Of a stretch of 64,000 nucleotides of DNA, positions 17,807 to 25,155 are shown piece after piece (the first letter of the stretch is position 1; every line of letters begins with the position of its first letter). This stretch comes from Callorhinchus milii (Eukaryota): the NCBI RefSeq assembly GCF_018977255.1, contig NW_024704768.1, positions 2,914,001 through 2,978,000 of the forward strand, read 5' to 3'. The notes under the pieces were generated by a model, which had not been told where the DNA came from, made no database searches, and saw only the letters and a program-made list of their open reading frames with translations. A program made the translations under genes and the position numbers.

Positions 17807-18454
17807 GAGTGCTGCACAAATGGACCAACTACTTGAGTGGTGAGAGTCAGTGGATTGAATCCCAACCCCTCTCCCGGGTTCCTCCTCCTCTTCTTCCTCA
17901 TAACGATCCTCGTCTCCGACCCGGCGCCCCATCGCGTCTTCCGGACGTCTCAAAGCGCTCCGCGGGACACGCTGTAAAGTGTAGTGACTGTGCGACGTTC
18001 CCCCGCCCCCACCCACCCCCGCAAACAGCGGTGAAATTGATCATTATTATTATTTTTTTTGGGTGGGGAAGGGATTATTACCCCCGGAAAAGCCATCCGC
18101 CGATCGACCGATCGACCTACTGACTGCTGGTAAACAGGCGTGTGCGCGTGTGCGCGCGGACGTGCGTGTGCGCGGACTCCAGAGAGGCGGACTCCGGTTT
18201 CCCCGGACGTTCCCGCCGCTGTTTTCTTTCGCACCAGGTCCGGCGACGGGATCCCAGCGACGCTTCGCCCCGGACGCGGGCGACATCCTCGTACCCGAGC
18301 AAACAGCACGACATGACTCTCCAGACTTTTCTTCCCGGCCGGAGGTTCCCGGCGAACGAGCGGCGCCTCCGGGTCTCCGGATCGCCCCCCGCGCCCCTCT
18401 CCGCGCCCCTCGCCCTCGGCGGCCGCGCTCTCTGCCCCGAAGCTTTGGAGCTCT

Positions 18455-18496
<42 letters not shown>

Positions 18497-21400: not shown

Positions 21401-24400
21401 TAAACTATAACTGGAGCACAGCAGCGTCCCCCCCGCACTCTCTCTCTCTCTCTCTCTCTGGAGGGACGACCCCCCCTCCCCCACCATCCCCCCACCGCTT
21501 ACCTAATTCCGGAGAGTATTAGGCGCAGGTTGGCAAGAGCCAAGCCTTGTGTGTGTGGGGGTGAGCCCAGAGTGTGCGTCGGGGGTAACTGCTGGAGTGT
21601 AACCAGTAAAGTCGCACTGATACCGTTGAGAACCAGTACTGTGCACCGATGCACCTTTTAATCAGCAAATGTGATTTAGTTGTACAGCACAGAAGGAAAA
21701 CCATTTGCCGATCGCCTTTCCAAGAGCTCTTTGTCCAGTTCCACTTCCTCTCCCTTTCTCCTGTAGCCCTTTTGTATTTTTCTTTCTTAAACGTCAGCCC
21801 TATTAATATTTGCGTTCGGACGGGACTTTGAACTCATGGCGTTGGCTGATACCTTGCGGTGCTGGGAGCGAATGAGATACAGTGCAGGTGCAGTCCTTTG
21901 GATGAGACGTTTTCCTTTTCTGTAGGGCCTTAAACGCCTGAGGGGTCCCTGTGGCTCAGCGGTTAGAGCCCTCTCGCCTCGCGAGCGAGAGGACCCGGGT
22001 TCGATTCCCGGGCAGGAGCGAAACATTGGGCAAGTTTCCTTACTCCACACACACACACACACACACGCGCGCCCACGCACACGCGCCCACGCACACGCGC
22101 ACGCACACGCCTCTGTTTATTTACCCAGCAAGTAAGTTGTTAGTCGATCGGCAGATCGCTTTTCCAGGGGGTAATAATCCCTTCAAAAAGATGAATAAAT
22201 AACGATAATGCGGTCACTCAATCCGCGACTTGTTTGCGGGGGACGCCGCTGGGCTCAACCGGCTGCCGCGTTTCGCCCACAAAATCCCGCGAAGCGCCTT
22301 TGAGACGTCTCGGAAGACGCGATGAGGCGCCGGATCAAACGCGAGGAGCATTACTGCTATCGCTATCGTTATATACATCGTCACAGCGCCTTTGGGACGT
22401 CCTCCCGACGTGAAAGGCGCTCTGTGAATGGAATCTTGTTGTTGTTGTTGTTGTATATCTTGACCTCTGTGTTCGTCCGTCATTCTGAAATCTGCAGATA
22501 TCAGCGAGAACGACGATTGCTTGAAATCCAAAATGTCTGAGCTGCGGCTGTATTGTGACTTGCTGATGCAGCAGGTACATAAGATCCAGGAGTCCGCACA
22601 CCCCATGGAGTGTGGTTCCACTCCCGACGTTGAGGTAGCGTAAACCTCATTGCTTCGGTGGCCACGCACCTTTGAGTTCAGCTCAGTGGTCAGAGCCCTC
22701 GCACCCCGCAAGCGAGGGAGGACCCGGGTTCGATTCCCGGGCGGGTCGGGTCGGGTCGGGTCAGGTCGGGGCGAAACGTTGGGCAAGTTTCCTTACTCCA
22801 CACGCCTCTTGTTTACTCAGCAGTGTGTAGGAACCCGGTTGTTAGTTGATCGGCGGATCGCTTCTCTGGGGGTAATAATACCGCCAACGCAAGGTTATTA
22901 AAAAAAAATAATAATTTGCTCACTCAATCCACGACTGTTTGTGGGACGCTGCTGTGCGCAATTGCCTTCCGCGCTTCCCCCGCAAAACACACAGCCACTA
23001 CACCATAAGACCATAAGACGTAGGAGCAGGAGGAGGCCATTCGGCCCCTCGAGCCTGTGCCCCGCCATTTAATAAGATCATGGCTGATCTTCTAACCTAT
23101 TTCCATTTACCCGCCCTCTCCCCATATCCCTTAATCCCTCTACCCTTCAGAAATCTATCAACCTCAGTCTGGAATATGTTCAAGGACTGACTGAGCATCC
23201 GCAGCCTTCTGGGGTAGAGAATTCCACAAATTCACTACCCTCTGAGTCAAGAAATGTTTCCTCAACTCAGTTCGAAAAGGCTGAGCCTTAATCTTGAGAC
23301 GACGACCCCCTCGTTTTAGATTCTCCAACCAAGAGAAACAGTCTCACGGCATCTACCCTCTCTCTATACGCCTTACAGTGTGTCCCGTGAAGCGCTTTGA
23401 GACGTCTCGAAGACGCGATGAGGCGCCGAATCAAACGCGAGGGTCATTAACCCTCCGAGCGGGTCATCTGTGCGCCGCGGGGGGAGAAGTTCGGGAGGAT
23501 TTTAACGGTGAACGTTTTCTCCGCGGAACGCAAACGCCGAGTTTCTTTTTTGGTTTAAAAAGATCCAAACTAAGCCGTAGGTCTTCGCTTGCAGAAAATG
23601 AACGAAGCGTCCTCGTTGCTTAAAGCCACGTGCAATACCTTCATAAACACCCTGGAGGACTGTATGAAGATAGCAAGTGTCAAGATCGCCCCAGAGCTTC
23701 TCACACCCCCGGAATCCACGGTTGTCCATGTTACCTCCACGCCGCTTCGCAGGGTTGGTGAATTTCCTATCACGTCTATCCTCCACCACCTATTATTGAG
23801 GCCTGTGGCTCAGTGGTTAGAGCGAGAGGGACCCGGGTTCGATTCCCGGGGGGTGGGACGGGCACGGTCAGGTCGGGTCAGGGCGAAACCTTGGGCAAGT
23901 TTCCTTACTCCACACGCACACGCGCACACACACACACACACACACGCGTGCCTCTGTTTACCCAGCAGTGTGCCCGGGAACCCGGTTGTTAGTCGATTGG
24001 TGGATCGCTTTCCAGGGGGTTAATAATCCCTTCAAAAAAAAATAATAATAATAATAATTTGGTCACTTCAATCCGCGGCTGTTTTCTGGGAGGACTCCGC
24101 TGTGCGCAGTTGGCCGCCGCCTTTCGCCCCACAAAATCCACAAGTCGCTACACTTCGCGGTGGGTCCTGCGAAGCGCTTTCTGAGACGTCTCGAAGGCGT
24201 GGTAAGGCGGCTGTGTCCATTGCGAGGATTATTATTATTAGCGTTATTATTACTATCGCATCGAGAGTTTGACCCGTGAGCCGCGAGATGTGTACGTTCT
24301 TCAGTTTTCTTCCTCGTTTTAACACTCCAGGTCCGACGTTCCGTGAGTCACACCGGTGTCGCGCCTGACAGGTACGTACCGGGTAAGACCAAGCGTTTTT

Positions 24401-25155
24401 TGTGGGGGGGGGCACGTTCGGTTGCTTTTCCCCACCCCCCCCCCAACTCCGTTGACCCCTCCCGTGGCAAATTGGGGTGGGGGGGCGGGGGTGGGGTGGG
24501 GGTGGGTTCCAGCTACGAATCGAACCCGCGGAGCTTTCCCAGAACAACTCAAGCGAAGTGAAGGGGCGTTTTACACGAGCGGCTGCGCCAAAGGCGACGA
24601 TTGTGCCGTTGGCTGATTGCAGGAACGCCGAACTGAACCAAGAGCAGAAGGGATCGGTCACGGTCATGAGAAACCTGGAGCAAATGGCCGCGCACAGGGC
24701 AACCCGGTGGCTAAGGCAGACGGAGGAAAACGAGAGGGCGGACGCTGTTCGTGAGACGGAGCCGGCGAGTAAGAAACGTGGCTCTGTTTCATCTCTTAAC
24801 CGAAGTCTGTGAACCATCCGATCGCGCTGATGTAACCCGGTATTGAAGCCGAGCGTGCGCAAGAGCTTGGGTCACCAAACCCCCGACCGTTGGCGCGATC
24901 GGCTGCCGCGTTTCGCCCACGAAAAGCCGGACGGAACCTTTCCCCGATTCGAAATGCCGTGGGGGAGTTTAATGTGTATTCCGCCAACGACCGATGCGGT
25001 CAATTCGCTTCACAGTCCCTCCCGTGAAGCGCTTTGAGACGTCGCGAAGACCCGATAAGGCTCTCGCGTCGAAAACGCAAGGGTTGGTGCTCCTTCTAAT
25101 CTGATTTTTATCATTTGCAGATCCAACGCAGAATGCCCAGAAGGTTAAAGACTAG
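17807..25155 (+). CDS. Pleckstrin homology domain family A member 3-like (FAPP1-type PI4P/ARF adaptor), no GLTP domain, about 276 aa; start codon lost in the gap
   Basis: Exons: <17807-17839 ([11 protein letters not shown]), 18773-18889 ([39 protein letters not shown]), 20437-20592 ([50 protein letters not shown] branch point at 20410), 22498-22634 ([19 protein letters not shown]), 23595-23753 ([22 protein letters not shown]), 24331-24371 (VRRSVSHTG), and probably 24623-24768 and 25121-25155 (TAG). The last two exons are lower confidence. Candidate AATAAA signals at about 27524 and 27645. Confidence 0.88.
19262..19670. repeat. C-rich minisatellite, about 15-bp unit CCCTGCCCTCCCTAC
   Basis: Directly visible; produces the [10 protein letters not shown] pseudo-ORFs. 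Confidence 0.95.
20745..21170 (-). mobile_element. Near full-length tRNA-derived SINE
   Basis: Reverse complement has head (tagctcggtggttagagccctctcgcctcgcaagcgagaggacctgggttcgattcc), body and tail. Confidence 0.85.
21435..21610 (-). mobile_element. Unclassified dispersed repeat, copy 1 of 3
   Basis: Reverse complement of ctccagcagttacccc..ttggctcttgccaacctgcgcctaatactctccggaattaggtaagc, shared with 47645-48006 and 54331-54483. Confidence 0.7.
21941..22352 (+). mobile_element. Full-length tRNA(Ala)-derived SINE with Deu-like body and L2-like tail
   Basis: A box tggctcagcggtt, anticodon arm ctcgc-ctcgcga-gcgag (CGC), B box ggttcgattcc, (CA)n, body, and tail hairpin gcgcctttgagacgtctc. Confidence 0.88.
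23005..23365 (-). mobile_element. CR1 LINE 3' fragment inserted inside a SINE
   Basis: cataagaccataagacgtaggagcaggaggaggccattcggcccctcgagcctg is the reverse CR1 tail, followed by reverse ORF2 end ([14 protein letters not shown]). The SINE body stops at about 23004 and resumes at about 23370. Confidence 0.8.
23800..24250 (+). mobile_element. tRNA-derived SINE
   Basis: Head, (CA)n, body and tail all present. Confidence 0.85.

What the first reader, a model, noticed from the sequence alone, without database searches (positions are those of the whole stretch)
17807..25155. PLEKHA3/FAPP1-like gene in the HOXC-type neighbourhood: candidate lost third FAPP ohnolog
Seen: an intact spliced PH + coiled-coil gene with no GLTP domain, between TNS2 and TARBP2. 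It mixes FAPP1-like residues ([34 protein letters not shown]) with FAPP2-like residues ([24 protein letters not shown]) and has a divergent C-terminus. The basic residues equivalent to FAPP1 K7/R18 (PI4P binding) are kept. Established: human PLEKHA3 lies near PRKRA on 2q31 (HOXD), PLEKHA8 on 7p (HOXA), while TNS2, TARBP2, NPFF, CCDC65 and FKBP11 are 12q13 (HOXC) genes, where I know of no functional FAPP gene. Inference: this is a 2R whole-genome-duplication paralog retained in this lineage, and the FAPP-TARBP2 pair mirrors PLEKHA3-PRKRA.
Basis: partly seen in the sequence, partly recalled or inferred. Interest (0 to 1): 0.8.

Follow-up and report, generated by a model that had tools for sequence, protein, structure and literature searches.

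The report
Third FAPP gene, lost in mammals
This is an intact, spliced gene for a third member of the FAPP family of Golgi lipid-binding adaptors, most likely the genome-duplication twin of FAPP1/PLEKHA3; it survives in sharks, gars, lungfish, amphibians and reptiles, appears lost in mammals, and likely binds the lipid PI4P while keeping an old helix motif that FAPP1 has lost.

Summary
Real gene, essentially as described. Eight GT-AG exons encode residues 4-276 of a protein already auto-named 'PLEKHA3-like'. Transcript contigs from two studies confirm the last exons. The genome holds separate PLEKHA3 (beside an FKBP gene and PRKRA, HoxD-type chromosome) and PLEKHA8 (with GLTP domain). Trees place the gene in its own jawed-vertebrate clade (98/94), sister to PLEKHA3 (83/88); a shark-only duplication is rejected (AU p=1e-64). 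It is not confined to cartilaginous fish: bichir, sturgeon, gar, tarpon, coelacanth, lungfish, amphibians, turtles, crocodilians and squamates keep it. None was seen in mammals, birds or later teleosts, but the lists were cut. The source table of the 2024 hagfish genome paper already classes an unnamed gar gene 8 kb from tarbp2 as the beta2 copy, so the ohnology is in print as a row, undiscussed. New here: a tail helix (TVxRNLEEM) shared with lamprey, hagfish and sea urchin, and lost from 20 of 21 PLEKHA3 and 10 of 10 PLEKHA8 proteins. It likely works as a PI4P/Sac1 adaptor with a different tail partner. An ordinary lost ohnolog with one testable twist.

The parts
15250..15552 (+). Probable promoter: 6 CCAAT/ATTGG boxes, 3 GC boxes, one CRE (15425), CpG o/e 0.87
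   Evidence: Motif count; link to this gene is inferred from position only
17807..17839 (+). Coding exon 1, visible part (residues 4-13, with K7 and the beta1-beta2 wedge); its start reads N
18773..18889 (+). Exon 2 (PH; R18; clade-diagnostic Y19)
   Evidence: (joined to exon 3 in run X4)
20437..20592 (+). Exon 3 (end of PH domain; Y70)
22498..22634 (+). Exon 4 (first long helix of the hairpin)
23595..23753 (+). Exon 5 (second helix, Pro/Ser linker)
24331..24371 (+). Exon 6 (RSxSH motif shared with PLEKHA3)
24623..24768 (+). Exon 7 (conserved TVxRNLEEM helix, residues about 231-244)
25121..25155 (+). Exon 8, coding part to the TAG stop
25156..25660 (+). 3' UTR, at least this long; AATAAA at 27524 and 27645 untested
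   Evidence: transcript contigs to about 25550; retrocopy match to 25660
1..8630 (+). 5' neighbour: 3' part of a tensin gene (TNS2 by linkage; its three paralogs lie on the other three Hox contigs)
29236..36105 (+). 3' neighbour: TARBP2 (dsRBD exons); only other hit in the genome is beside PLEKHA3 on C6
42900..44813 (-). NPFF precursor
48184..53241 (+). CCDC65-type gene (NYD-SP28 domain)
   Evidence: read from sequence
53700..56300 (-). Exons of an FKBP11-like gene (FKBP end, transmembrane segment, basic tail); name recalled, not confirmed by a library
   Evidence: no Pfam FKBP hit

Best explanation
This is an intact, transcribed eight-exon gene for a PH-domain plus helical-hairpin protein with no GLTP domain, most likely the HOXC-linked (beta2) genome-duplication twin of PLEKHA3/FAPP1, whose product likely docks on trans-Golgi PI4P and likely recruits the phosphatase Sac1 as FAPP1 does, but is predicted to use a different, older tail helix for its second partner. 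History (inferred): the chordate gene had PH + hairpin + tail helix + GLTP. After 1R, copy 1 kept GLTP (PLEKHA8) and copy 2 lost it before cyclostomes split off. 2R then gave PLEKHA3 (alpha2, HOXD) and this gene (beta2, HOXC). PLEKHA3 lost the helix and fixed an RRRTYSDT segment; this gene kept the helix, evolved faster and was dropped by mammals, probably also by birds and later teleosts. Shown: structure, splicing, three separate loci, clade, linkage, motif distribution. Inferred: sisterhood to PLEKHA3, lipid and Sac1 binding, role of the helix, the losses.
For: Three loci on three Hox contigs. PLEKHA3 at C6:25.29 Mb with an FKBP exon at 25.2995 Mb, PRKRA at 25.3107 Mb and a Hox cluster at 25.81-25.90 Mb. 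PLEKHA8 with GLTP exons at C2:46.76-46.78 Mb, FKBP at 46.788 Mb, Hox cluster at 48.06-48.16 Mb. This gene on C27, with 11 clustered homeobox hits at 1.60-1.77 Mb and the best SP1 match at 1.37 Mb. Trees: own clade 98/96, 98/94 and 94/93; sister to PLEKHA3 98/90, 83/88 and 90/89. Shark-only duplication rejected, AU p=1e-64. All GLTP-less genes, cyclostome ones included, can be one clade at no likelihood cost. Published table: PLEKHA3 alpha2, PLEKHA8 alpha1, unnamed gar gene beta2 at LG4:14,537,150, tarbp2 beta2 at 14,545,496, HoxC13 beta2, HoxD13 alpha2 (PMC10972751 source data). Skate Plekha3-1 is 20 kb from Tarbp2 (PMC10115646 supplement). A bichir gene model fuses this gene to SP1. PH is 81/100 identical to bat FAPP1; 13 of the 15 wedge and ligand residues named in PMC2854595 are identical. 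Sac1 binds FAPP1's N-terminal domain (construct 1-100), VAPA its C-terminal region (97-300) (PMC6400556). Tail motif present in lamprey, hagfish and sea urchin, and as a remnant in holocephalan PLEKHA3.
Against: Sisterhood to PLEKHA3 is not forced by sequence: grouping with PLEKHA8 is not rejected (AU p=0.23), support with invertebrate outgroups is unstarred (83/88, 90/89), and Y70 plus the RQKWL state are shared with PLEKHA8. The free tree does not itself join the cyclostome GLTP-less genes to this pair. I did not match the gar table row to my gar protein by sequence. No binding or localisation data exist for any member. T13S, H70Y and a clade-wide W19Y could alter lipid or ARF1 binding. The tail helix has only pLDDT 61-73. 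Losses rest on cut lists (120 of 954; 150 of 2215), and divergent members (frog, eel) already fell below the first list.
Confidence: 0.8

Rival explanations
1. Same ohnolog, but functionally a redundant, decaying backup of FAPP1: it binds PI4P, adds dosage, and the tail helix has no separate partner.
For: Root-to-tip length exceeds PLEKHA3's in 8 of 8 matched taxa (for example alligator 0.73 vs 0.19). It was apparently lost several times. Beta copies are generally poorly retained (PMC7269912 passage).
Against: The helix is kept in all 17 clade members aligned, inside an otherwise fast-changing tail, and in sea urchin and cyclostomes. Pure redundancy would not keep it.
Confidence: 0.1
2. The gene is sister to PLEKHA8, or a mosaic made by exchange between early duplicated chromosomes, and lost GLTP on its own.
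For: AU p=0.23 for grouping with PLEKHA8. GEQYFY and RQKWL are shared with PLEKHA8 and absent from all 11 outgroup proteins. PMC7269912 notes prolonged exchange among Hox-bearing chromosomes.
Against: Best trees favour PLEKHA3 in 3 of 3 builds. It shares GLTP loss, KGSKGS and RSxSH with PLEKHA3. TARBP2/PRKRA and HoxC/HoxD are beta2/alpha2 pairs in the published table.
Confidence: 0.07
3. It is a translocated or cartilaginous-fish-specific duplicate of PLEKHA3.
For: Databases name it PLEKHA3-like, and its position relative to TARBP2 differs from PLEKHA3-PRKRA.
Against: PLEKHA3 is in place on C6. The clade spans sharks to crocodilians. AU p=1e-64.
Confidence: 0.01

Closest known systems
PLEKHA3 / FAPP1
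   Same: PH + two-helix region without GLTP; matching exon boundaries for exons 1-5; PH 79-81% identical; K7, R18 and wedge kept; RSxSH motif
   Different: Separate clade and chromosome; tail only 16/52-16/59 identical; lacks RRRTYSDT, keeps TVxRNLEEM; Y19 and Y70; faster rate
PLEKHA8 / FAPP2
   Same: FAPP-type PH and helical region; S13, Y70 and RQKWL states
   Different: No GLTP lipid-transfer domain, so it cannot be a glucosylceramide carrier of the FAPP2 type; tail motif absent from 10 of 10 PLEKHA8
Cyclostome GLTP-less 'PLEKHA3-like' (Petromyzon P0183, Myxine P0231)
   Same: No GLTP; same tail helix (TVVRDL); same eight-exon layout in the lamprey gene on C190
   Different: Likely co-ortholog of both PLEKHA3 and this gene, predating 2R; lies beside titin like PLEKHA3
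Row ENSLOCG00000005691 of OG_1165 (beta2) in the hagfish genome paper's source data (PMC10972751)
   Same: Third FAPP-family gene of gar, on LG4, 8 kb from tarbp2; most likely the ortholog
   Different: Unnamed; the main text never mentions PLEKHA or FAPP; no distribution or motif analysis
RefSeq-type automatic annotation 'PLEKHA3-like' (XP_042200247.1)
   Same: Identical protein
   Different: The name hides that it is a distinct ohnolog; PMC8983885 has it in its BLAST tables but describes only two vertebrate groups

Membership tests
FAPP (PLEKHA3/8) subfamily | N-terminal FAPP-type PH domain | tested here: met
   Best PDB sequence hits are FAPP1 PH, E 3e-52; Foldseek top 3 are FAPP1 PH; Pfam PH
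FAPP (PLEKHA3/8) subfamily | Wedge and PI4P-pocket residues | tested here: met
   13 of 15 residues named in PMC2854595 identical; T13S and H70Y differ, both PLEKHA8-like states
FAPP (PLEKHA3/8) subfamily | Falls inside the vertebrate FAPP clade | tested here: met
   100/98 against 7 invertebrate outgroups
FAPP (PLEKHA3/8) subfamily | Binds PI4P and ARF1, localises to the TGN | not testable with these tools
   Needs lipid-binding and imaging assays
PLEKHA3 orthology group | Nests in the PLEKHA3 clade | tested here: not met
   PLEKHA3 is one side of a branch without it, 99/99; AU p=1e-64 for joining the chondrichthyan copies
PLEKHA3 orthology group | Linked to FKBP7, PRKRA, TTN and HOXD | tested here: not met
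   That position is held by another gene on C6
PLEKHA3 orthology group | Binds Sac1 (N-terminal domain) and VAPA (C-terminal region) | not testable with these tools
   FAPP1's VAP site is unmapped (PMC9213790 table); the tail differs
PLEKHA8 orthology group | C-terminal GLTP domain | tested here: not met
   No Pfam GLTP; no GLTP exon in the window; transcripts end in exon 8
2R ohnolog on the Hox paralogon (CLGB beta2) | Paralogs on paralogous Hox-bearing chromosomes with co-duplicated neighbours | tested here: met
   Hox clusters, tensins and SP genes on C2, C6, C23, C27; TARBP2/PRKRA on C27/C6; FAPP genes on C2, C6, C27, none found on C23
2R ohnolog on the Hox paralogon (CLGB beta2) | Duplication older than the cartilaginous/bony fish split | tested here: met
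   Both clades contain chimaera, sharks or rays, ray-fins and tetrapods
2R ohnolog on the Hox paralogon (CLGB beta2) | Sister to the alpha2 copy (PLEKHA3), to the exclusion of cyclostomes and PLEKHA8 | tested here: inconclusive
   Recovered at 98/90, 83/88, 90/89, but grouping with PLEKHA8 not rejected, p=0.23; the published table gives beta2

The most novel reading that the evidence does not exclude
The TVxRxLEEM helix is an ancient deuterostome docking site for an unknown Golgi or ER partner. After 2R the twins split the tail: PLEKHA3 kept a basic Ser/Thr segment and lost the helix, and this gene kept the helix. Mammals, having lost this gene, lost that whole interaction, so human FAPP1 shows only part of what the ancestral adaptor did, and the missing part can be studied in Xenopus, axolotl or lizards.
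Probability: 0.35. Interest if true: 0.6.

Novelty: new member of a known kind. Interest (0 to 1): 0.36.

Why it matters
It corrects the published two-member picture of vertebrate FAPPs. It dates the GLTP loss that made FAPP1 to between 1R and the cyclostome split. It shows that some databases label this paralog 'PLEKHA3', which can mislead PI4P and Golgi work in frogs, salamanders and reptiles. The conserved tail helix gives a natural swap experiment for mapping FAPP1's unmapped VAP-binding region. As a lost beta-copy ohnolog it is one of many, so a specialist would be interested rather than surprised.

Tried and rejected
A fourth FAPP ohnolog: the extra intron-bearing locus on C190 looked like one, but it is a lamprey contig (see noticed). 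No FAPP hit was found on the fourth Hox contig C23 with exon 3 or exon 5. The two C2 hits at 44.23 and 44.26 Mb are intronless broken retrocopies. A two-copy complex of residues 98-262 gave no verdict (score 0.14, mark 0.32, alignment not used) and is not used as evidence either way. Fold searches matched only the PH domain and left the hairpin and tail barely tested. ESM Atlas returned only PLEKHA3-type and ORP11 clusters, taxa at phylum level. A loose FFAT-like pattern hit TYSDT[DE]S in 6 of 6 PLEKHA3 and 0 of 10 members of the new clade, but the residues upstream are basic, not acidic, so I do not call it an FFAT motif. Best-BLAST sorting of 386 proteins put 98 in the new clade but wrongly included at least one hagfish PLEKHA8 and three invertebrate-like proteins, so it was not used as a count. 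No run is on record as RNA. Paper searches: 'PLEKHA3-like' 0 papers; PLEKHA3+ohnolog 1, the ayu paper; FAPP1+FAPP2+evolution+shark 2, irrelevant by listing; PLEKHA3/8+paralog 2; PLEKHA3+FFAT 2. None of those I read describes a third FAPP in its text; subscription papers were not searched. Earlier findings of this scan: none.
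Full report
Observation. The gene is in the sequence as described. A search over exon boundaries constrained to GT-AG gave one solution of eight exons from 17807 to 25155 that translates to residues 4-276 of P0002, a protein that public sources name 'PLEKHA3-like isoform X1' of Callorhinchus milii. The start of exon 1 reads N in the window. 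Pfam finds a PH domain and no GLTP; PLEKHA8 queries find no GLTP exon in the window. Two AlphaFold runs give a confident PH domain, two long helices and a mostly disordered tail with one weakly predicted helix at about 231-252. Contigs of runs guessed to be RNA join exons 2-3 and carry exons 3, 4, 5, 7 and 8 on one record with no mismatch. They show GT..AG joints for exons 6-7 (3 of 4 runs) and 7-8 (4 of 4 runs) in two studies. Two intronless, stop-ridden copies on C2, about 74% identical to the spliced sequence, show independently that the mRNA was made in the germ line.

The same genome. Exon 3 finds six places and exon 5 the same six. C6:25.29 Mb is PLEKHA3, head to head with an FKBP exon, 13 kb from the only other TARBP2-like hit (PRKRA), with very long titin-like frames on its 3' side and a Hox cluster 0.5 Mb away. 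C2:46.76-46.78 Mb is PLEKHA8 with GLTP exons, head to head with an FKBP exon, 1.3 Mb from another Hox cluster. The window lies on C27, 1.2 Mb from 11 clustered homeobox hits; its group-13 homeodomain looks HOXC13-like (the signature is recalled). The best SP1 match is on the same contig. Tensin paralogs lie on the same four contigs as the four Hox clusters. The fourth Hox contig, C23, gave no FAPP hit. The remaining hits are the two retrocopies and a lamprey contig.

Phylogeny. In three ML trees (54, 43 and 41 rows; N-terminal 205-218 columns) the window protein falls in its own clade (98/96, 98/94, 94/93), sister to PLEKHA3 (98/90, 83/88, 90/89). Only one chondrichthyan PLEKHA8 was included, and no amphioxus sequence. 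Forcing the chondrichthyan members together with chondrichthyan PLEKHA3 is rejected (p=1e-64). Forcing the clade with PLEKHA8 is not rejected (p=0.23). Forcing all GLTP-less genes, lamprey and hagfish included, into one clade costs nothing (p=0.53), though the free tree leaves that node open. The clade is longer-branched than PLEKHA3 in 8 of 8 matched taxa.

Distribution. Members placed by tree: chimaera, sharks, rays, bichir, sturgeon, paddlefish, gar, tarpon, conger, coelacanth, lungfish, salamanders, a caecilian, a pipid frog (88/93, long branch), turtles, alligator, lizards and a snake (names). None of the named members is from a mammal, bird or clupeocephalan teleost. The lists were cut at 120 of 954 and 150 of 2215. 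An avian copy close to the crocodilian one should have ranked, but the chicken HOXC chromosome is often poorly assembled (recalled). The BLAST tables of PMC8983885 list second, 52-58% identical 'PLEKHA3(-like)' proteins in Bufo, Rana, Nanorana and Xenopus, probably this clade; I did not see their sequences. The Fig. 5 legend of the ayu paper PMC8389408 lists 'plekha3-like' among genes that include tarbp2 and sp1; I cannot see which species or panel it belongs to.

Synteny elsewhere. The source data of PMC10972751 (file cut when stored) list 15 rows for OG_1165: PLEKHA3 as alpha2, PLEKHA8 as alpha1, an unnamed gar gene on LG4 at 14,537,150 as beta2, and lamprey and hagfish genes as 1R copies 1 and 2. 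Gar tarbp2 is beta2 at 14,545,496; HoxC13 is beta2 and HoxD13 alpha2. No chicken or Xenopus beta2 row is listed. The main text never mentions PLEKHA or FAPP. Skate Plekha3-1 lies at 5.28 Mb of Leri_40C and Tarbp2 at 5.26 Mb. A bichir model fuses this gene's first exons to SP1. So the ohnology is already implicit in a published table, while the one paper I found on PLEKHA evolution describes only two vertebrate groups although XP_042200247.1 is in its supplement.

Mechanism. The PH domain is 81/100 identical to bat FAPP1. Of 15 wedge and ligand residues named in PMC2854595, 13 are identical, K7 and R18 among them; T13S and H70Y are PLEKHA8-like states. W19Y marks all 17 clade members aligned and none of 33 others. 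FAPP1 binds Sac1 through its N-terminal domain (construct 1-100) and VAPA through its C-terminal region (97-300) (PMC6400556); the VAP site is unmapped. PI4P-dependent TGN docking and Sac1 recruitment are therefore likely, by inference only. The tail differs. A profile of the TVxRNLEEM stretch built from 17 jawed-vertebrate members alone scored above all 300 shuffles in 4 of 4 cyclostome GLTP-less proteins, 2 of 36 invertebrate proteins (sea urchin P0239 and its cluster-mate, in register at residue 227) and 1 of 21 PLEKHA3 (the holocephalan one). It did so in 0 of 10 PLEKHA8 and 0 of 2 cyclostome GLTP-bearing proteins; one further invertebrate reached p=0.007 with a lower score. Conversely RTYSDT[DE] occurred in 59 of 228 proteins, never together with the strict helix motif. 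The tail of this gene is thus the older one, and the twins appear to have divided it. What the helix binds is unknown; I rate a distinct partner at about one in three.

NYLSG is shared with most outgroups and so is ancestral; KGSKGS and RSxSH are derived and shared with PLEKHA3; GEQYFY and RQKWL are shared with PLEKHA8 and absent from outgroups. A strict column count gives 2 derived sites with PLEKHA3 and 1 with PLEKHA8. The mix neither proves nor places the paralog; the tree and linkage do.

Papers seen. PMC8983885: passages, and supplement searches (files 8-10 not searched). PMC8389408: passages, section 11, supplement search with no hit (files 13-17 not searched). PMC6400556: passages and section 8. 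PMC2854595, PMC7269912, PMC9213790: passages. PMC10972751: passages and supplement rows. PMC10115646: supplement rows only (one PDF unreadable). All others: search listing only. Recalled, from no call: the human 12q13 gene order, the absence of a third functional human FAPP gene, and the FKBP11 name.

Verdict. A real, expressed, un-named third FAPP, most likely the beta2 twin of PLEKHA3, widely kept outside mammals. New member of a known kind; interest 0.36.

Noticed in passing
G000:C190 (L027-L037; gene at 60.5-72.6 kb, minus strand): A 102-kb contig in this assembly is lamprey DNA: its FAPP exons are 95-100% identical to Petromyzon, Lethenteron and Lampetra proteins where the frame is intact, it shares 1 BLAST hit with the window against 616 and 743 for host stretches of similar size, and exon 3 has frame breaks at G-runs. 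It should be flagged as contamination.
   Followed up: yes
G000:C190:25.7-30.4 kb (L029-L030): Titin-like Ig exons (best PDB hits titin) converge on the lamprey GLTP-less FAPP gene, matching the PLEKHA3-TTN linkage; they lie only about 30 kb from its 3' end, so this titin may be short or incomplete.
   Followed up: partly
G000:C2:44,232,600-44,233,900 and 44,257,400-44,258,700 (L004, L005): Two processed pseudogenes of this gene, 24.8 kb apart and 99.6% identical over 3.1 kb including flanks: a recent tandem duplication or an assembly duplicate. They read on about ten codons past the window gene's stop, as shark orthologs do, so the chimaera protein was shortened later.
   Followed up: partly
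P0171 residues 233-246 (G000:C6:25.2907 Mb): Holocephalan PLEKHA3 alone among 21 PLEKHA3 proteins keeps a recognisable remnant of the tail helix directly before its RTYSDT segment.
   Followed up: yes
PMC8983885 supplement, Dipnomorpha sheet: For African lungfish the BLAST table lists only this third paralog and then OSBP, with no PLEKHA3 or PLEKHA8; a reciprocal loss or an annotation gap.
   Followed up: no
PMC10972751 source data: Hagfish chr13 has a GLTP-only model (EA20368) and a PH-only model (EA18640) side by side, both copy 1: probably one PLEKHA8 split in annotation.
   Followed up: no
window 28490-28800: The TARBP2 promoter contains several tandem copies of a roughly 55-60-bp unit, each with a CCAAT box and a GC box (9 CCAAT and 12 GC boxes in 28300-28900).
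   Followed up: no
window 33615-33730 vs 32435-32560: A short duplicate of the end of a TARBP2 exon and the following intron sits in a later intron (read by eye).
   Followed up: no
P0232, P0263, P0295 (tarpon, conger, bonefish): The elopomorph copies are very long-branched, with changes in the PH core, and may be on the way to loss.
   Followed up: partly
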